The notes under the pieces: model-generated | What the model saw: only the letters and a program-made list of their open reading frames with translations | Database searches by the model: none | What the model was told of the DNA's origin: nothing | NCBI GenBank assembly: GCA_036004365.1 | Contig: DASYRN010000045.1 | Span: 7,637 to 71,636 of the forward strand | DNA: 64,000 nt | Direction of reading: 5' to 3' | From: Candidatus Binatia bacterium | Lineage (GTDB): Bacteria; Desulfobacterota; Binatia; UBA9968 | Position numbers and translations under genes: made by a program | Shown here: positions 30,322 to 36,938 of the stretch, in pieces | How the letters are laid out: each line of letters opens with the position of its first letter | How positions within the stretch are numbered: the first letter of the stretch is position 1

Positions 30322-30676
30322 AATCCTCCTCCTCGAGATTTTGGTGCAAGGGCTTTTGCCCGAGACAGCTGACGCGATGCAAGCGATATACCAAGGGCCA
30401 GAATAATTAAACCGTGGATTGTTAAAGGGATTGGAAGTTCGGCTCTTCTGACACGGTCCCTAATTGTTATGGAAAGGCCTAAATTGTACCGTCAAGTAAC
30501 TTGATCGTTGTCTAAGAGGAATGGGATCCTCGTCTTGATCTTGGATTCTTGAGCCAGGTCACCCGGTCTGCCATGTGTATCTTGGCGATCCAAGAAAGGG
30601 ACGAGGCAAGAGGTGATAGGCGATAGTTTTTAGTCGCTCTCGCAACTATTGTATATTATAACATGGCTCTCGCGTT

Positions 30677-30690
30677 TTGAGAATTCAAAA
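30677..30690. promoter_or_regulatory. degenerate F4 copy 3 (TTGAGAATTCAAAA)
   Basis: CGCGTTTTGAGAATTCAAAAATGTAAAAAC; left half intact, right half mutated. Confidence 0.3.
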
Positions 30691-30746
30691 ATGTAAAAAC
30701 GAGTTAATGATGGAATCTTGCCCTATACGATTGTAACATTGGATAG

Positions 30747-30893
30747 GACCGAATTGCCGGCTTGATGACTTCCTATGGATACGCGAATATTCTCCACGCC
30801 GGTTTCTGCGCCTTGGAGCTTCTTGAATGGGAAGTCGATCAGGTTTTGGGCGTTGGGCCTTTCACGTCCGCCGAATTGCGCGCCGATCGTTAG
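30747..30893 (+). pseudogene. 3' remnant of a YciI-like gene (decayed paralog of 35809..36117)
   Basis: Translates to DRIAGLMTSYGYANILHAGFCALELLEWEVDQVLGVGPFTSAELRADR*; the full gene ends ERIAGSDPYTKAGFCAFELFEWEVHQVLGVGPFTSAELRAHR*. The last ~50 nt are about 94% identical. Confidence 0.55.
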
Positions 30894-30941
30894 CAGTTGG
30901 AGATTCACATCTTCGGCGGAAGATTTGAGAAGGAGGTATCC

Positions 30942-32164: not shown

Positions 32165-32523
32165 GATCTCTAGTCTTTTTTCAGAGGTCAAAATAAATAG
32201 TAGATGAGCGTGCTCGATCCTGCCATTGTCTCACGTTTGCGTGATTGCGACGAAGAAACAGTGGCCTGTCGGCCCGGATATCTGAGCGGTCGGGGACGGA
32301 TACTCCTCCTGCGTTGTCTCTAACCGAATTTCCGGAGAGTTGTTCATAATTGTCATATTGGACGGTTTCGGTCCACTTACCACGAGCCCTTATTCGACTT
32401 GTGAGCGGGAAATCCTTTTTAAAAACCACATATTGTATTGATAGGCCAAAATAAGGGCCTTTGGCATGAATTATGAATCTTATCCACTATATAGGCCCAT
32501 CTATCTTAAGAGAGCGATCCCTT

Positions 32524-33954
32524 ATGCGAGACGTCGCAATAGCAACCGAGGCAGCATCACTTTCCAAGGAATGTCCTGGATGTGGCGCTCTCCTGGAACT
32601 GACTCTCGAGGCGTGCTGGAAATGCGGCGGAAAAGTCGAACCGGATATTCCCACAGCGCCGTACGAAGAGAAACGACCCTTCAAGCCCTATCTAGACAGA
32701 AGCGCCGACCTTGGAAGAGAGGTCTACGAACGGCTTATCCAAGCCTTTTCAGAAGTGAATCCCCGCGAAAGACCCTGGTGTGGCATAGGGGTTAAAGCTG
32801 ACCTTCTCGCGGTATCACCAAGATCCGTGACAGTCGCGGTGATAAAGGAGCTGAGCGGGGTCAAGAAAGGCCTCGTTCATGTCTCGCAGAATTGGCGGGA
32901 ACCTTGGCAGGTAGAAACCGTCGATAGGGAGAAACATCAGATACGAAGCAATCCTTGCGAGCAGGCGGAGCGGGCGATCAGCGCTGTCAAAAGTAGTCTC
33001 AAGTCTTTTCTCAAGGCCAATGAGCAGGCTGTATTCCCGCGCATAAAGTGTTTAATCGTTTTCCCCGATGGATACGACTTTGAAGGGCCAAAGGATTTTT
33101 CCATGCTCGACCACGACGGGGTGATCACGCTGAGTCTACTAAACTTTCGTGATTTACCGGATGCGATATTACGACCGACGGACCACGAAGGACTGGATTC
33201 CCGGCAGTACAGGAAATGGATTGAAGAACTTCTAAGGAGCAACGATGAGTCCACCCTCGGGACATGGCTTGATCCGGCCTTCGATAAGCCGGAGCCGGAG
33301 CCGCCCAAGAGACAGCTCTGGCGGTTACGTTATCCGCGCCGCCGAAAAGTGCCGGCAAAGGAAGAGGAACTCTCTTGGTCAAATAGTCCGCGAAAGAGAT
33401 CGGTCCAGGCGAAATTGAAGGGGACTCGACTCAAATTTACCGTGACGGTTATCACGGGTATGCTCGTTGGAATGGTCGGATGGCAAATGTATAGTGTTGG
33501 GGAACATACCGCGCCGCCTCCACGCGCGGAAACTACCCCTGAAGTCACTCAAGCGGTGCCACCCCAAGATGTCCCGTTGTCAACGGAACTCGAGAAGGAG
33601 GAGATATTGCCTCCGCCGCAGCCAGTAGAATCCCGCGAACCGCAGGCGCCTATAGCGCCGAAAGAGGATCAACCCATCAAAGGCGCGAATAAATCTGAGG
33701 TCACCCGCACTCAGGCTCCTGGCGATTTAGAGCTCAAGCGGCAGAAGGTGGAACTCAAGATCCATGATGCTATTCTCCGTCGCGCGATCACCGGTGTGAC
33801 GGTTTACTTCGCCGGGGACACGGCTTACCTCCGCGGCCAGGTCGAGACCGAAAACCAAAAATCTGCTGCCGAAAAGGCCGCGAGGAGCGTCCCGGGGGTT
33901 AAGGAAATCCGCAATTCAATTGAGGTCAATCCCCCATCCCCTGCGGATGGCTAG
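32524..33954 (+). CDS. zinc-ribbon - NERD (nuclease-related domain) - transmembrane - Pro-rich linker - BON domain protein
   Basis: CPGCG...CWKCGG ribbon; NERD pattern DLLAVSPRSVTVAVIKEL...NP.EQ...I; TM segment LKFTVTVITGMLVGMVGW; C-terminal VYFAGDTAYLRGQVETENQKSAAEKAARSVPGVKEIRNSIEV BON. Confidence 0.7.
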   Translation: MRDVAIATEAASLSKECPGCGALLELTLEACWKCGGKVEPDIPTAPYEEKRPFKPYLDRSADLGREVYERLIQAFSEVNPRERPWCGIGVKADLLAVSPRSVTVAVIKELSGVKKGLVHVSQNWREPWQVETVDREKHQIRSNPCEQAERAISAVKSSLKSFLKANEQAVFPRIKCLIVFPDGYDFEGPKDFSMLDHDGVITLSLLNFRDLPDAILRPTDHEGLDSRQYRKWIEELLRSNDESTLGTWLDPAFDKPEPEPPKRQLWRLRYPRRRKVPAKEEELSWSNSPRKRSVQAKLKGTRLKFTVTVITGMLVGMVGWQMYSVGEHTAPPPRAETTPEVTQAVPPQDVPLSTELEKEEILPPPQPVESREPQAPIAPKEDQPIKGANKSEVTRTQAPGDLELKRQKVELKIHDAILRRAITGVTVYFAGDTAYLRGQVETENQKSAAEKAARSVPGVKEIRNSIEVNPPSPADG

Positions 33955-34030
33955 CCTGATGACGGCCAGATAACACTTCGCTTTTCCTTCAGATCAAAGT
34001 AAAGAGCAGCGAGCGTCCGCTGACTGTCCC

Positions 34031-34486
34031 TCAAGTTTGATTACTAATGAACTGAAATATCTTTGCAGCGGCGTCAGCGCCGGTCGTCGTTGTCGTGTCG
34101 ATTCTTATAGTCGGATTGTTCGGCGGCTCCATTCGATGGAACATGATGTGGAGTGCTTTTTCGGATATATTCGGCTGCCGTTCTCGATTGCGCCGAAGAG
34201 CGACCTCTAAGGGGCAATCAAGAAAAACGGTTACAACTCTCTCCGCTTGTGCCCGCGCTTTGACCTGGCACCGCCATTCCTTTTTGTAAAACGTGGCGTC
34301 AAAAATTAGGAAATCCGTTCTCCTCCGATCGGGCGCCAGCGCATTGAAAAACTTCCGGTAGACCGGCGGTCTTAGCCTGTCGGAACTCAAGATCTGAACG
34401 CTGCCTAATTCAGCGAGGCGCTCGGCCAGCTTTTCTGCTATCGTACTCTTACCCGATCCGGGAATGCCGCAAAAGAGAATAATCAA
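34031..34486 (-). CDS. small P-loop kinase of the AAA_33 / polynucleotide-kinase-like family
   Basis: Walker A GIPGSGKST at residues 7-15; downstream SSDRLR and ALRRNRERQ resemble the T4 Pnk kinase lid (LVKRNSKRG); TTG start; 151 aa. Confidence 0.7.
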   Translation of the reverse strand: MIILFCGIPGSGKSTIAEKLAERLAELGSVQILSSDRLRPPVYRKFFNALAPDRRRTDFLIFDATFYKKEWRCQVKARAQAERVVTVFLDCPLEVALRRNRERQPNISEKALHIMFHRMEPPNNPTIRIDTTTTTGADAAAKIFQFISNQT

Positions 34487-34514
34487 TAAGATATGTTCGT
34501 GACGCCGCGCTGGG

Positions 34515-34772
34515 CTATCGGCGGGGTCGGGCGAGCCTCATCGCTTGCTCAATGGTGGGAATGATCTCGGGGCAACATTGCCTGGCGATTTCGAGAATGA
34601 TGCGCGCTTGGTTCTGGTCACAGGGGATCGTGTAGCCTTTAAAAAATACGCCCTCAAACGAATGATCAATTCGCGTGGCCTTGGCAATGGCCTCATAGGC
34701 GGGAGACTCAACGGGAATTCGACTCCGCAGTCGGTCAAAGTGTGGAGGAGCGACCTTAATGAATATCTCCAT
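34515..34772 (-). CDS. hypothetical 85-aa alpha/beta protein, kinase partner
   Basis: Ends 28 nt upstream of the kinase; no recognised family; conserved-looking cysteines CDQ...QCCPE. Confidence 0.5.
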   Translation of the reverse strand: MEIFIKVAPPHFDRLRSRIPVESPAYEAIAKATRIDHSFEGVFFKGYTIPCDQNQARIILEIARQCCPEIIPTIEQAMRLARPRR

Positions 34773-34894
34773 GGCGCCACCTCACCAAAAATACGTTAGG
34801 ATGCTCAATTCAACCTACCAAATAGGGCCGTTATTTCAATGCGGGTCCGTCAACCTTCACCGGTCGAGTTTCCCAAAACCCGCTCGTCAAGGCA

Positions 34895-35350
34895 TCACAC
34901 TCTAGTAGCAAAACGGATCGCATCGATATTAGGTAAGCAAGAGCGGCATTGGGTGACGTGTGCGACGGCGGCGTCCAAATCCCAGCCGCAGCACCAAGAG
35001 AGATACGCGACCGCGACCGTAGGAGATCGGCCAGCGCCGGCGGAGCAATGGAGATAGACTGTATGGCCAGACTCCATGAGCTCGTTTAGCGCGGACACGC
35101 ACGCCGGGAGCTTGTCTTGCAGATCGACTGGGTCCAAGTCGCGCACTGGGACACGACAAGGGTGAATGCGGCAGATTTGGTAGTGGGTTGCCAGCGAATT
35201 CCAATCCAGGCTAAAGTGCTGCATGTCCTCGTCGGTTTGTAGATTGAGCACAGCCGAAATGGCGGCATCGCGCTTTAATATCTCGATGTCACCAGCGCTT
35301 CCTGGGTAGGAACCGACAAAGAGTTTGGAAAGAATCTGATGGTAATCCAT
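34895..35350 (-). CDS. dual-specificity (VHR-like, CX5R) protein phosphatase
   Basis: HCSAGAGRSPTVAVAYL P-loop with catalytic C and R; general acid D upstream; 151 aa. Confidence 0.8.
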   Translation of the reverse strand: MDYHQILSKLFVGSYPGSAGDIEILKRDAAISAVLNLQTDEDMQHFSLDWNSLATHYQICRIHPCRVPVRDLDPVDLQDKLPACVSALNELMESGHTVYLHCSAGAGRSPTVAVAYLSWCCGWDLDAAVAHVTQCRSCLPNIDAIRFATRV

Positions 35351-35444
35351 AGCTTGGGTAGGTCGTAAGGAGTGAGGCGTAAACAGGAGAACCCCTTGCA
35401 CGTTTTACGTTTCACTAGCCATGACTATCATCCTGACGTTACGG

Positions 35445-35666
35445 TCACGGACTCTCTTTGACGGCGAGAAGTGAGGCCAGCGGGCACAACACTTTGTATT
35501 CGGCTTTGCCTGTTTTTTCTTTCCAGCTGGCGGCGCCTGGAGCTCCGTCAATGAATTCGTAAGCATCCACGCCGAATGTGCTTTTACCGTCAATCAGCAG
35601 GACTTCGTGCCATCCGTCGGCAAGCAGCACATAACGCACTTTCTCTACATTGAGCTTCAGAGCCAT
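35445..35666 (-). CDS. hypothetical 73-aa beta-rich protein, first gene of the phosphatase/kinase operon
   Basis: AAGGAGG Shine-Dalgarno sequence; family not recognised. Confidence 0.55.
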   Translation of the reverse strand: MALKLNVEKVRYVLLADGWHEVLLIDGKSTFGVDAYEFIDGAPGAASWKEKTGKAEYKVLCPLASLLAVKESP

Positions 35667-35808
35667 GTTTTGCCTCCTTTCCTCAGGATCCGAACGTTGC
35701 GTTCGAGGTTCCTTGTCGTGATATTTTATCAGGATTCAAGGCTCGCTCCAGGGGTAGGCCCGCTAAGGGGTAAAGGATGCAATAAACTATAAAAGCTAGG
35801 AGGACAGC

Positions 35809-36117
35809 ATGTGGTATCTGATCCATCGTAAGCCCATACGACCGCGTGAGGAATGGACCGTGAGTCTCGACGAGCATCTTGTCTGGATGAAACAGCAGCA
35901 CGAGGCCGGCCGGATCCTTTTTTCCGGCCCGACCCGGGATCGCACGTTGGGGATTTACGCGATACGCGCCGGCTCCAGGGAAGAAGCCGAGCGGATCGCC
36001 GGCAGCGATCCTTACACGAAGGCCGGTTTCTGCGCTTTCGAGCTTTTTGAGTGGGAGGTGCACCAAGTTTTGGGCGTCGGGCCTTTCACGTCCGCCGAAT
36101 TGCGCGCCCATCGCTAG
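35809..36117 (+). CDS. YciI-like (dimeric alpha/beta barrel) protein
   Basis: 102 aa; YLI..K...R.E... HL.W pattern of the YciI family; AGGAGG Shine-Dalgarno sequence. Confidence 0.75.
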   Translation: MWYLIHRKPIRPREEWTVSLDEHLVWMKQQHEAGRILFSGPTRDRTLGIYAIRAGSREEAERIAGSDPYTKAGFCAFELFEWEVHQVLGVGPFTSAELRAHR

Positions 36118-36153
36118 CGGTCTACAAGGAGCTCAGAAGAGCACTTTCACCGT

Positions 36154-36167
36154 TTGAGAATTCTCAA
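36154..36167. promoter_or_regulatory. perfect palindrome TTGAGAATTCTCAA (F4 copy 4)
   Basis: CACCGTTTGAGAATTCTCAAGAGTCAAAAGG, about 37 nt after the YciI-like stop and between convergent genes. Confidence 0.4.
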
Positions 36168-36200
36168 GAGTCAAAAGGATTTGGGAACAAGAAAAGGACT

Positions 36201-36938
36201 TTAAGAAGGGTTCTTTCTTGTGGGAGGAACGATTCTAGCCTGTTCGATGGCGGGTTTGGCCGCTTCCTTATGAGGGCGAGCTAGCTGGTCTGGAGCGTCG
36301 GTCGTTTTAGGCTGACCTTCTATTGTTTGTCTTAGAATTTCCTCTTGCAGCGAACCTTTATTGTTCCCAGCTACGGGCTTTCCCGTCTCAATGTCGTCAT
36401 TGATGAAAACTGCGGCTGCAAAGACAGTCGTCCAGAGCCCATCTTTATTGCCAACGGCAGACTGAGTGATATTGGTAGTACGGACGATCTTGCCGGACAT
36501 CTTGAAAAGTTGCTCGCGCTCGTCCCAATCCAATTCAGGATCAAATTCAATCCCCAGGGTAGTCGCGAGCATGCTGGCGGCGAGGTCTTCCGCATATTCT
36601 CCCGCTCGTTCATCGGTTTCTCCAAACGAATGATGCTCGGAAAGATAACCGTGCATGGAAGAATCCGCGGGGATCGCCAAGCCGATAGAAGCTGCGATGA
36701 GACGATTTGGCTCGTTGTTACTTTCTCGATCATAAACGGCAAATACAATCTCTCCGGGCCGTAAGAGCTTTAATCCTTCCTCCTTGGAGATAATCTTGCA
36801 GGCTGGGGGATAGATGCTGGAGACGAGAACCAAATTGCAGTGGGCCAAGCCGGCAACCCGCAGCGCCATCTCAAAGGAGGCCAACCGTTCCTTATGAACG
36901 CCGACTCCTTTGGTGAAAAAAACTTTCTTAGGAACCAT
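36201..36938 (-). CDS. pdaD: pyruvoyl-dependent arginine decarboxylase (PdaD) with ~70-aa low-complexity C-terminal extension
   Basis: [42 protein letters not shown] matches the PdaD N-terminus including the self-cleavage serine region. Confidence 0.7.

What the first reader, a model, noticed from the sequence alone, without database searches (positions are those of the whole stretch)
34031..35666. Uncharacterised four-gene operon: 73-aa protein - VHR-like CX5R phosphatase - 85-aa protein - PNK-like P-loop kinase
Four co-oriented minus-strand genes have short gaps (94, 122 and 28 nt). The first gene has a strong Shine-Dalgarno sequence and its upstream spacer (35667-35808) is shared divergently with the YciI-like gene. 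The 151-aa kinase carries Walker A GIPGSGKST at residues 7-15 and an RRNRERQ lid resembling the T4 polynucleotide-kinase domain (GCPGSGKST ... VKRNSKRG). The phosphatase has HCSAGAGRSPTVAVAYL, which is close to VHR HCREGYSRSPTLVIAYLM. A kinase plus a cysteine phosphatase plus two small unknown partners is not a named system that I recognise. Plausible roles are a split nucleic-acid end-healing module (5'-kinase + phosphatase) or a toxin/antitoxin-like phosphorylation toggle. It sits in a segment that looks inserted (see the YciI duplication finding) next to a NERD nuclease-domain gene.
Basis: partly seen in the sequence, partly recalled or inferred. Interest (0 to 1): 0.6.

Follow-up and report, generated by a model that had tools for sequence, protein, structure and literature searches.

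The report
Four neighbouring genes, not one system
Four real, same-strand genes in a soil Binatia bacterium sit together only in this lineage, so they are not a new kinase-phosphatase system; the phosphatase is, however, a bacterial relative of the plant starch phosphatases LSF2 and SEX4.

Summary
Four minus-strand ORFs lie at the stated coordinates with gaps of 94, 122 and 28 nt. All four belong to conserved protein families and are under purifying selection (dN/dS 0.12-0.29).

The claim of an uncharacterised four-gene operon does not hold. The order is kept only in the same organism and one close relative, and that relative has an extra lipoprotein gene between genes 2 and 3.
- None of 25 other genomes carrying the kinase family has the phosphatase or the 73-aa gene nearby.
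- None of 80 loci of the 73-aa family has any of the other three genes.
- None of 5 loci with phosphatase homologues has any of the other three.

Only the 85-aa gene followed by the kinase recurs. It does so in 4 mutually syntenic genomes, while 4 other loci carrying the 85-aa gene lack the kinase.

The kinase is a minimal P-loop kinase. It scores closest to the PSTK/KTI12 and APS-kinase folds. Elsewhere its family is fused to a 2H phosphoesterase next to RtcB, so RNA 5'-kinase is my best guess.

The phosphatase is not specifically VHR-like. It is 39% identical to LSF2 (E 1e-29, against 4e-5 for VHR). This places it in the glucan-phosphatase clade, which a 2009 survey found absent from bacteria. 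No genomic context supports a glucan role.

Overall: ordinary juxtaposition, with one moderately interesting by-product.

The parts
35445..35666 (-). p73: a 73-aa small beta-barrel protein from a widespread family of unknown function (motifs LLADGWHxV, STFxxDAYEF, CPLTSILAV).
34895..35350 (-). Stand-alone 151-aa dual-specificity (CX5R) phosphatase of the LSF2/SEX4/laforin clade. It is the DSP domain only, with catalytic C102 in HCSAGAGRS and candidate general-acid residues D71/D73.
   Evidence: Pfam DSPc 1.3e-14. Against PDB: LSF2 1e-29 (39% identity), SEX4 8e-22, laforin 1e-12, VHR 4e-5. Family profile against LSF2: 2e-42. Family alignment. dN/dS 0.29.
34515..34772 (-). p85: an 85-aa protein from a narrow family found in Binatia-like bacteria, with invariant C51, C67 and P68 and a ferredoxin-like alpha/beta sandwich model. 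It sits directly upstream of the kinase here and in four other genomes.
34031..34486 (-). 151-aa minimal P-loop kinase with a TTG start. Features: Walker A GIPGSGKST, a nearly invariant Asp (D36) after invariant S35, D63, and lid R99/N100/R103. Fold class is PSTK/KTI12/APS-kinase/PNK. It lacks any C-terminal substrate-binding domain.
   Evidence: Pfam AAA_33 5.7e-15 and KTI12 3.3e-13. NCBIfam PSTK 4.7e-13, far below its cut-off. PDB profile: PSTK 2e-16, APS kinase 6e-14, Pnkp kinase domain 6e-6. Alignment A1. Fusions and neighbours. dN/dS 0.19.
34005..34022 (-). Terminator-like GC-rich hairpin followed by a T-rich tail, 9 nt after the kinase stop codon. It is the only such site on this strand across the four genes.
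   Evidence: The region's count of such sites is not above the shuffled expectation, so this is weak evidence.
35667..35808 (.). Divergent 142-nt spacer between p73 and the YciI-like gene. A promoter for p73 is presumed to lie here. No sigma-70 consensus match and no Rfam element was found.

Best explanation
The four ORFs are real, separately conserved genes that happen to lie side by side in one Binatia lineage. They are not a dedicated four-component system. Each most likely works on its own.

1. **p73** is a small beta-barrel protein of a widespread family whose ligand is unknown.
2. **The 151-aa phosphatase** is a cysteine-dependent (CX5R) phosphomonoesterase. Cys102 attacks the phosphate, Arg108 binds it, and an Asp about 30 residues upstream (D71 or D73) protonates the leaving group. 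It belongs to the LSF2/SEX4/laforin branch of dual-specificity phosphatases. A phosphorylated carbohydrate polymer is therefore the best single guess for its substrate (inferred, roughly 0.3).
3. **p85** is a small alpha/beta protein restricted to Binatia-like bacteria.
4. **The 151-aa kinase** is a minimal ATP-dependent P-loop phosphotransferase of the PSTK/KTI12/APS-kinase/PNK fold. Its family is fused elsewhere to an RNA 2',3'-cyclic phosphodiesterase-type (2H) domain next to the RNA ligase RtcB, and to a DUF559 nuclease-like domain. It therefore most likely phosphorylates 5'-OH ends of RNA or another polynucleotide (inferred, roughly 0.45).

The only linkage that may be functional is p85 followed by the kinase, which may be co-translated as a pair.

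**Shown:** gene reality, family assignments, and lack of conserved gene order.
**Inferred:** substrates, co-transcription, and any p85-kinase interaction.
For: **Gene order.**
- The full order HU-ArgDC-YciI-p73-DSP-p85-kinase-NERD/BON is found only in 100%-identical contigs (L169-L171) and one relative whose kinase is 88% identical (L080/L081).
- That relative carries an extra 59-aa lipoprotein gene between the phosphatase and p85, so even there the block is interrupted.
- Of the 25 best-matching species genomes with the kinase family (34-73% identity), none has the phosphatase or p73 within 6 kb. Four have p85 directly upstream.
- Of 80 metagenome loci of the p73 family, none has the phosphatase, p85 or the kinase within 4 kb, and no partner recurs across lineages.
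- Five phosphatase-homologue loci (Zixibacteria, Acidobacteriota and others) have none of the other three genes.
- Four p85 loci lack the kinase. In MAG JACQUW01 the p85 homologue and the kinase are on different contigs.

**Kinase function.**
- L011 (Saccharibacteria) encodes RtcB followed 3 nt later by a kinase-LigT/2H fusion with both HxT motifs.
- L012 has a YbaK-type tRNA-editing gene overlapping the kinase start.
- NUDIX genes abut the kinase in L003 and L020.
- L017 carries a kinase-DUF559 fusion (E 7.5e-4).
- D36 (nearly invariant), R99 and R103 (both invariant) fit the catalytic Asp and RxxxR lid.

**Phosphatase.** Searches give full-length matches to LSF2, LSF1 and SEX4.

**Other.** No defence, phage or RNA-element signal was found.
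Against: - The four genes are co-oriented with short spacers. No terminator-like site lies between them and one lies after the last gene, so co-transcription in this organism cannot be excluded.
- Lineage-specific operons can be functional.
- The tblastn screens at E<=1e-3 would miss very divergent analogues of the small proteins. A profile HMM search for p85 also found nothing more.
- The p85-kinase adjacency recurs in a second, otherwise non-syntenic context with 12-27 nt spacing. This argues that at least this pair is more than chance.
- The substrate assignments rest on homology and on rare fusions, about 6 of 25 loci.
- The kinase's best sequence matches are PSTK and APS kinase, not PNK.
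- No glucan-metabolism gene accompanies the phosphatase in any of 6 contexts.
Confidence: 0.7

Rival explanations
1. Only p85 and the kinase form a functional two-gene unit. Under this reading p85 is an adaptor, regulator or substrate-binding partner. It would replace the C-terminal substrate-binding domain that PSTK and KTI12 carry and this 151-aa kinase lacks. p73 and the phosphatase would be unrelated neighbours.
For: - p85 lies directly upstream of the kinase, on the same strand, with a 12-28 nt gap. This holds in the window lineage and in L005, L006, L008 and L010, whose flanks differ from the window's.
- The kinase aligns only to the N-terminal domain of PSTK, residues 5-170 of 260.
- p85 is a well-folded, conserved small domain.
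Against: - L005, L006, L008 and L010 are syntenic with one another, so they may count as a single evolutionary event.
- The six other close kinase loci (L001-L004, L007, L009; 58-73% identity) lack p85.
- Four p85 loci lack the kinase, and one MAG has the two genes on different contigs.
- The kinase family extends into CPR (candidate phyla radiation) bacteria and archaea, where no p85 homologue was found near the kinase.
- The p85 fold search was unspecific.
Confidence: 0.35
2. The four genes form one system in which the kinase and the cysteine phosphatase act on the same substrate, either as a split nucleic-acid end-healing module or as a phosphorylation toggle. The two small proteins would serve as partners.
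For: - The genes are co-oriented with short spacers and a single terminator-like site at the end.
- The kinase family is linked to RNA repair elsewhere.
- One phosphatase homologue follows LigA-PolX in a Zixibacteria MAG, and a PolX fragment is nearby in L087.
Against: - The kinase and phosphatase families do not co-occur in any of 25 + 5 independent loci.
- p73 is linked to none of the others in 80 loci.
- A close relative has an unrelated lipoprotein gene inserted in the middle of the block.
- The phosphatase's nearest characterised relatives act on glucans, not nucleic acids.
Confidence: 0.07
3. A toxin-antitoxin or anti-phage defence module. The P-loop kinase (Zeta-toxin-like) would be the toxin, and the small proteins or the phosphatase would be antidotes.
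For: There is a weak Pfam Zeta_toxin match limited to the P-loop (1.1e-5, residues 2-40). Small adjacent ORFs are present. A NERD-domain gene lies next door.
Against: - PADLOC gives no hits for p73, the phosphatase, p85 or the NERD protein, and only P-loop-level hits (E>=6e-4) for the kinase.
- There is no PHROG signal.
- The window is ordinary chromosome encoding Rho, Dxr, acetolactate synthase and DinB.
- No integrase or tRNA gene was found.
- The kinase family is mostly stand-alone in housekeeping-type contexts.
Confidence: 0.03

Closest known systems
Plant phosphoglucan phosphatases LSF2 and SEX4 (also LSF1, and animal/protist laforin)
   Same: - The DSP domain matches over its full length: LSF2 E 1e-29 at 39% identity, SEX4 E 8e-22 at 35%. 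The family profile scores 2e-42, 3e-37 and 3e-36 against LSF2, LSF1 and SEX4.
- The motifs HCxAGxGR(S/A)P, (R/K)DFD, LNLQxDxD and CRxCxPNxxAIR are shared.
- An aromatic residue (F46) lies at the position of SEX4 F140 and LSF2 W136. The specificity role of that position is taken from PMC12892837.
   Different: - It is bacterial, 151 aa, and DSP domain only. It has no chloroplast transit peptide, no CBM (SEX4 has CBM48, laforin CBM20), and no LSF2/SEX4 C-terminal motif (architecture from PMC5779698).
- The position of SEX4 F235 / LSF2 G230 is Leu here and Ser in the family consensus.
- The D-loop Phe, conserved in over 90% of the bacterial family, is Leu in this protein.
- No glucan genes are nearby in 6 contexts.
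- Activity is untested.
O-phosphoseryl-tRNA(Sec) kinase (PSTK) and KTI12 N-terminal kinase domain
   Same: This is the best solved-structure match for the kinase family (3adb/3a4l, E 2e-16). Pfam KTI12 scores 3.3e-13. Walker A, the Asp after strand 2 and the RxxxR lid align.
   Different: It lacks the C-terminal tRNA-binding domain; the alignment covers PSTK residues 5-170 of 260. NCBIfam PSTK gives 49 bits against a cut-off of 290. It is bacterial, and from general knowledge bacteria make Sec-tRNA without PSTK.
Polynucleotide 5'-kinase domains (Clostridium thermocellum Pnkp, T4 Pnk) and kinase-CPDase healing modules of tRNA ligases
   Same: The P-loop kinase fold and catalytic layout are shared. 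The Pnkp kinase domain scores E 6e-6 over residues 2-121. A family member in Saccharibacteria is fused to a 2H/LigT phosphoesterase directly after RtcB. That mirrors kinase-CPDase end-healing architecture.
   Different: The similarity is weaker than to PSTK or APS kinase. NCBIfam bacter_Pnkp gives 16 bits against a cut-off of 750. The window protein is a bare kinase domain with no phosphatase, ligase or Hen1 partner conserved next to it.
Adenylyl-sulfate (APS) kinase CysC
   Same: This is the second-best solved-structure match (7yq0, E 6e-14). JGI's automatic name for homologues is 'adenylylsulfate kinase-like enzyme'.
   Different: NCBIfam apsK gives 41 bits against a cut-off of 138.7. At 151 aa it is shorter than CysC (175-211 aa in the PDB hits). 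No sulfate-assimilation genes were seen next to any member examined.

Membership tests
   The order is kept only in identical contigs and one close relative. It is absent from 25 kinase loci, 80 p73 loci, 5 phosphatase loci and 4 p85 loci.
   Only a consensus scan is available. It found no terminator-like site between the genes and one after the kinase. A close relative has an extra gene with its own Shine-Dalgarno sequence between genes 2 and 3.
Glucan phosphatases (SEX4 / LSF2 / laforin) | DSP fold with HCX5R and a general-acid Asp about 30 residues upstream. | tested here: met
   HCSAGAGRS contains C102. D71 and D73 lie in VRDLD. Pfam DSPc scores 1.3e-14. The catalytic description comes from PMC5779698.
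Glucan phosphatases (SEX4 / LSF2 / laforin) | Closer in sequence to glucan phosphatases than to other DSPs. | tested here: met
   LSF2 107 bits, SEX4 81 bits and laforin 52 bits, against VHR 27 bits and PTPMT1 26 bits. The profile search gives 148 bits for LSF2 against 62 for DUSP3/VHR.
Glucan phosphatases (SEX4 / LSF2 / laforin) | A carbohydrate-binding module (SEX4, laforin) or a C-terminal motif plus surface glucan-binding sites (LSF2). | tested here: not met
   The protein ends 2 residues after the DSP-domain alignment, and the family is 151-169 aa. The surface binding sites of LSF2 have no sequence signature (PMC5779698), so they could not be assessed.
Glucan phosphatases (SEX4 / LSF2 / laforin) | Active-site aromatic and specificity residues (SEX4 F140/F235; LSF2 W136/G230). 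| tested here: inconclusive
   F46 aligns with F140/W136. L139 (Ser in the family consensus) aligns with F235/G230 (residue roles from PMC12892837). The fit of the P-loop CSAGAGR to a C-zeta-A-G-psi-G-R signature is recalled from memory and was not verified.
Glucan phosphatases (SEX4 / LSF2 / laforin) | Releases phosphate from phosphorylated alpha-glucan; associated with glucan metabolism. | not testable with these tools
No glucan-metabolism genes lie next to the gene in 6 contexts or among 10 of the window's 16 ORFs of at least 330 aa.
Polynucleotide 5'-kinase (T4 Pnk / bacterial Pnkp kinase domain) | Walker A, a catalytic Asp after strand 2, and lid arginines. | tested here: met
   GIPGSGKST is present. 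In 24 family members R99 and R103 are invariant and D36 is nearly invariant. The equivalence to Pnk residues is by HMM alignment to the Pnkp kinase domain and PSTK, plus memory of the published residues.
Polynucleotide 5'-kinase (T4 Pnk / bacterial Pnkp kinase domain) | Scores as a family member against curated models. | tested here: not met
   NCBIfam bacter_Pnkp gives 16 bits against a cut-off of 750. The PHROG polynucleotide kinase match covers only the P-loop. The Pnkp kinase domain at 6e-6 ranks below PSTK and APS kinases.
Polynucleotide 5'-kinase (T4 Pnk / bacterial Pnkp kinase domain) | Linked to end-healing or sealing partners (phosphoesterase, ligase). | tested here: inconclusive
   The feature is met for one family member: L011, RtcB followed by a kinase-2H fusion. 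It is not met in the window, where the adjacent DSP is not a conserved partner.
PSTK / KTI12 | N-terminal kinase domain plus a C-terminal tRNA-binding domain; curated model score. | tested here: not met
   Only the N-terminal domain is present. NCBIfam selen_PSTK gives 49 bits against 290, and selen_PSTK_euk gives 52 against 382.
APS kinase (CysC) | Curated model score; sulfate-assimilation context. | tested here: not met
   apsK gives 41 bits against 138.7. No sulfate-assimilation genes were among the neighbours examined.
Toxin-antitoxin or anti-phage defence system | Match to known defence or toxin models; a conserved toxin-antidote gene pair; mobile or defence-island context. | tested here: not met
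   PADLOC returns nothing beyond P-loop hits. The PHROG search gave no phage signal (only P-loop-level kinase hits and one weak phosphatase hit). The context is chromosomal housekeeping. Toxicity is untested.

The most novel reading that the evidence does not exclude
The 151-aa phosphatase would represent a widespread bacterial clade of true glucan phosphatases of the LSF2/SEX4 type. The clade is seen in Binatia, Acidobacteriota, Zixibacteria and others, with at least 238 protein clusters.

If so, reversible phosphorylation of storage or other alpha-glucans exists in bacteria. Gentry and Pace (2009, PMC2714694) concluded that laforin and SEX4 are absent from bacteria and that a bacterial glucan phosphatase is unlikely. 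The plant starch phosphatases might then descend from, or share an origin with, a bacterial enzyme.

A more speculative extension is that, in this lineage, the neighbouring minimal P-loop kinase supplies the phosphate.
Probability: 0.2. Interest if true: 0.65.

Novelty: new member of a known kind. Interest (0 to 1): 0.3.

Why it matters
As a proposed new four-gene kinase/phosphatase system, this does not matter much. The association is lineage-specific, so no new type of system is indicated.

Two by-products are worth keeping.

1. A compact, highly conserved bacterial DSP family sits firmly inside the glucan-phosphatase clade. That clade is treated in the literature I could read as eukaryote-only. 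I found no paper describing a bacterial or prokaryotic glucan phosphatase, although the library holds open-access papers only. Testing one of these proteins on phosphorylated amylopectin or glycogen is cheap. A positive result would bear on the origin of starch phosphatases and on whether bacterial glucans are phosphorylated.

2. A 150-aa minimal kinase family is conserved at 40-50% identity from Binatia to CPR (candidate phyla radiation) bacteria. It has RNA-repair fusions and is a candidate stand-alone RNA 5'-kinase.

Tried and rejected
- **PADLOC and PHROG scans of all four proteins.** They gave no defence or phage signal.
- **Rfam scan of 33500-36500 and a tRNA scan of the window.** Both found nothing.
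- **A first attempt to seed a metagenome scan with the broad p73 alignment.** It failed because no conserved stretch was found. A trimmed alignment worked.
- **The ~215-aa C-terminal extension fused to the kinase in L013, L019 and L024.** By eye it looked like an HhH-GPD domain. Pfam, a PDB sequence search and a BLASTP comparison with the neighbouring HhH-GPD protein of L018 were all non-significant, so I do not claim it.
- **The 71-aa ORF overlapping the start of the phosphatase homologue in L087.** It is not a p73 homologue.
- **Glucan-metabolism genes near phosphatase homologues.** None was found in 5 loci, or among 10 of the window's 16 ORFs of at least 330 aa.
- **Three glucan-phosphatase papers.** The LSF2 structure paper and two reviews were not held in the library. 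The C-zeta-AG-psi-GR signature therefore rests on memory.
- **Assigning the kinase to APS kinase, as JGI auto-annotation does.** I considered and rejected this because the score is below the curated cut-off and there is no sulfate-assimilation context.
Full report
**1. The observation**

The window region 34031-35666 carries four minus-strand ORFs exactly as described:
- p73, 35445-35666
- p85, 34515-34772
- a kinase, 34031-34486, with a TTG start

With the ATG at 35350 the spacers are 94, 122 and 28 nt.

Homologues fix both doubtful starts. The phosphatase family is 151-152 aa long and begins MDYxxILP. The kinase family begins MIILFCGIPGSGKST.

The quoted motifs and the GGAAAGGAGG ribosome-binding site of p73 are present.

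All four are real genes. Each has a conserved family. Against the close relative L080, dN/dS is 0.12 for p73, 0.29 for the phosphatase, 0.16 for p85 and 0.19 for the kinase.

The window comes from a Candidatus Binatia MAG. The p85 protein is 100% identical to an NCBI record with locus tag VGR30_04895. The surrounding 64 kb is ordinary chromosome encoding Rho, Dxr, acetolactate synthase and DinB.

**2. Is it a conserved unit?**

No.

*Where the order is kept.* The complete order HU-ArgDC-YciI-p73-phosphatase-p85-kinase-NERD/BON recurs only in contigs 100% identical to the window (L169-L171) and in one relative, L080/L081. That relative's kinase is 88% identical and its phosphatase 95% identical. 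Even there, a 59-aa lipoprotein gene with its own ribosome-binding site sits between the phosphatase and p85, where the window has a 122-nt spacer.

*Kinase loci.* A scan of one genome per species (GTDB) with a kinase-family alignment returned 79 loci. In the 25 whose kinase is 34-73% identical to the window's, tblastn found the phosphatase in none and p73 in none. p85 was found in four: L005, L006, L008 and L010. A p85 profile HMM found no further copies.

*p73 loci.* The p73 family is widespread, with 97 cluster representatives. In 80 metagenome loci, none has the phosphatase, p85 or the kinase within 4 kb. Its commonest neighbours, an anti-sigma/ECF sigma pair in 14 loci, look lineage-specific.

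*Phosphatase loci.* Five loci of phosphatase homologues have none of the other three genes. They come from Zixibacteria, Acidobacteriota and unassigned bacteria, at 55-70% identity.

*p85 loci.* Four p85 loci lack the kinase. There p85 is followed by an alpha/beta hydrolase, by an opposite-strand gene, or by a MEKHLA-domain gene. In MAG JACQUW01 the p85 homologue and the kinase lie on different contigs.

*The one recurring adjacency.* p85 followed by the kinase occurs with a 12-28 nt gap. The four extra genomes that show it are syntenic with each other for several kilobases but not with the window. This amounts to perhaps two independent observations, set against at least ten counter-examples.

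**3. What each gene is**

*Kinase.*
- Pfam gives AAA_33 (5.7e-15) and KTI12 (3.3e-13).
- NCBIfam's best hits are the two PSTK models and APS kinase, all far below their curated cut-offs.
- A family profile searched against PDB sequences gives M. jannaschii PSTK at 2e-16, covering the N-terminal kinase domain only. APS kinase follows at 6e-14, and the kinase domain of C. thermocellum Pnkp at 6e-6.
- In the 24-sequence alignment G7, P9, G12, K13, T15, S35, R99 and R103 are invariant. D36, D63 and N100 are nearly invariant. This is the Walker A, catalytic Asp and RxxxR lid arrangement common to PSTK, APS kinase and PNK.
- At about 150 aa it is a bare kinase domain.

Fusions and tight neighbours elsewhere give functional hints:
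- In a Saccharibacteria MAG (L011; 49% identical kinase), the kinase is fused to a LigT/2H phosphoesterase (Pfam 3.4e-15) with both HxT motifs, HITL and HLTL. The fusion starts 3 nt after an RtcB RNA ligase gene.
- In L012 a YbaK-type aminoacyl-tRNA editing gene overlaps the kinase start.
- NUDIX genes abut the kinase in L003 (Binatia) and L020 (CPR).
- L017 carries a C-terminal DUF559/Vsr-like domain. This is borderline, at E 7.5e-4 and 19.8 bits against a 20.6-bit cut-off.
- L013, L019 and L024 carry an unidentified domain of about 215 aa.
- The remaining neighbourhoods are unrelated housekeeping genes.

I infer an RNA or polynucleotide 5'-OH kinase as the most likely activity, at about 0.45.

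*Phosphatase.*
- It is a DSP (Pfam DSPc 1.3e-14), but 'VHR-like' undersells it.
- The single sequence matches Arabidopsis LSF2 over its whole length at E 1e-29, with 59 of 150 residues identical.
- It matches LSF1 at 7e-22, SEX4 at 8e-22 (35% identity) and laforin at 1e-12. VHR scores only 4e-5.
- The family profile gives 2e-42, 3e-37, 3e-36 and 1.6e-25 for the same four proteins, against 5e-16 for VHR/DUSP3.
- Shared blocks include LNLQxDxD, (R/K)DFD, HCxAGxGR(S/A)P and CRxCxPNxxAIR.
- The position that sets C6 versus C3 preference in SEX4 (F140) and LSF2 (W136) is Phe here. The second such position (SEX4 F235, LSF2 G230) is Leu here and Ser in the family consensus. The residue roles come from PMC12892837.
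- The protein lacks any CBM and the C-terminal motif of LSF2 and SEX4 (architecture from PMC5779698).
- No glucan-metabolism gene lies near it in six contexts.

[quoted passage not shown] Their criterion was a DSP plus a CBM in one protein, and it predates LSF2, which has no CBM. A full-text search found no paper using the phrases 'bacterial glucan phosphatase' or 'prokaryotic glucan phosphatase'. The library is open-access only, so this is not proof of novelty.

I file the protein as a member of the LSF2/SEX4/laforin sequence clade. I give about 0.3 to a phosphorylated glycan as its substrate.

**4. How it most likely works**

The best-supported reading is juxtaposition, not a system. Four independent genes may or may not share a transcript in this organism. 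No terminator-like site lies between them and one lies after the kinase, but this is a weak consensus scan. Their products have separate jobs.

The p85-kinase pair is the only candidate functional link, at about 0.35. p85 could supply the substrate-binding function that this truncated kinase lacks relative to PSTK and KTI12, but nothing tested here shows that.

They also fit poorly with a phosphatase whose relatives act on glucans. A toxin-antitoxin or defence role has no support.

**5. The 'inserted segment'**

A 100-nt copy of the YciI 3' end (30798-30897; 87% identical to 36022-36121) and a 39-nt repeat beside it bracket about 5.2 kb. That stretch holds the glyoxalase gene, a 175-aa ORF, the NERD/BON gene and the four genes.

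The close relative has the same arrangement, including the remnant. No integrase or tRNA gene is present, and GC content is unremarkable.

The remnant lies upstream of the intact gene. That is not the geometry expected for an island integrated into a gene's 3' end. A decayed YciI paralogue is the simpler reading. I did not pursue this further.

**6. Verdict**

- Observation: confirmed.
- Interpretation: partly supported. The enzyme classes are right; the four-gene system is not.
- Novelty: new members of known enzyme kinds.
- Interest: 0.3. The operon idea itself is low. The score is lifted by the bacterial LSF2/SEX4-clade phosphatase family and the minimal kinase family linked to RNA repair.

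Noticed in passing
window 30798-30897 and 36022-36121; also 30667-30705 and 36144-36182: A 100-nt direct repeat at 87% identity copies the 3' end of the YciI-like gene, and a 39-nt repeat at 72% lies beside it. Together they bracket about 5.2 kb that includes the four genes, the NERD/BON gene, a 175-aa ORF and a glyoxalase gene. The same remnant is present in the close relative L080. No integrase or tRNA gene is nearby. It looks more like a decayed YciI paralogue than an att-site pair.
   Followed up: partly
window 34031-34486 compared with L080 6049-6501: Synonymous divergence of the kinase gene between the window and its close relative is dS 0.29. That is 2-5 times the value for its neighbours (0.05-0.14). 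It suggests a local recombination or gene-replacement event confined to the kinase.
   Followed up: no
L080 5456-5635 (corresponds to the window spacer 34773-34894): The close relative has an extra 59-aa gene between the phosphatase and p85. The gene encodes a lipoprotein-type signal peptide (…LTFSGC…). The window has only a 122-nt spacer at this position.
   Followed up: partly
L011 231-2784 (Saccharibacteria MAG CAYIBZ010000001.1): An RtcB RNA ligase gene is followed 3 nt later by a fusion of this kinase family with a LigT/2H phosphoesterase carrying HITL and HLTL motifs. This looks like a compact RNA-repair cassette in a CPR bacterium.
   Followed up: partly
L013 6001-7092, L019 5461-6546, L024 61-927: In CPR and unclassified bacteria the kinase family is fused to a conserved C-terminal domain of about 215 aa (…FKWFLASLLFGARIS…GPVTCRIFLRELRGIW…). 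The domain has no Pfam or PDB sequence match. An HhH-like appearance by eye was not confirmed.
   Followed up: partly
window 32473-33954 (+): The convergent neighbour is a 493-aa protein with an unusual layout. It has an N-terminal zinc-ribbon-like segment (weak DZR hit), a NERD nuclease-related domain (8.5e-5), a long Pro/Glu-rich linker with a hydrophobic segment, and a C-terminal BON domain (3.9e-11). It has the highest dN/dS of the local genes, 0.54.
   Followed up: no
L086 1-4459 (Zixibacteria MAG DATLYW010000046.1); L087 1-399: A 69%-identical homologue of the phosphatase lies directly after co-oriented NAD-dependent DNA ligase LigA and PolX (PHP) genes. A PolX fragment is also within 4 kb of another homologue in L087. 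In L087 and L172, PAS/HisKA_3 sensor kinases flank the phosphatase.
   Followed up: no
P0285 (2365 aa) and P0303 (1809 aa), hits of the p73 search: Residues 31-59 of p73 (the STFxxDAYEF region) match eight separate stretches of the 2365-aa protein P0285; a second giant protein, P0303 (1809 aa), also scores (E 8.6e-7) but no matched stretches are listed for it. The small-protein motif therefore also occurs as a tandem repeat unit.
   Followed up: no
L170 2063-2515: In one public assembly of the same organism, the gene caller missed the kinase gene although the DNA is 99.95% identical. The TTG start with no Shine-Dalgarno sequence is the probable reason. Members of this family may be under-annotated.
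   Followed up: yes
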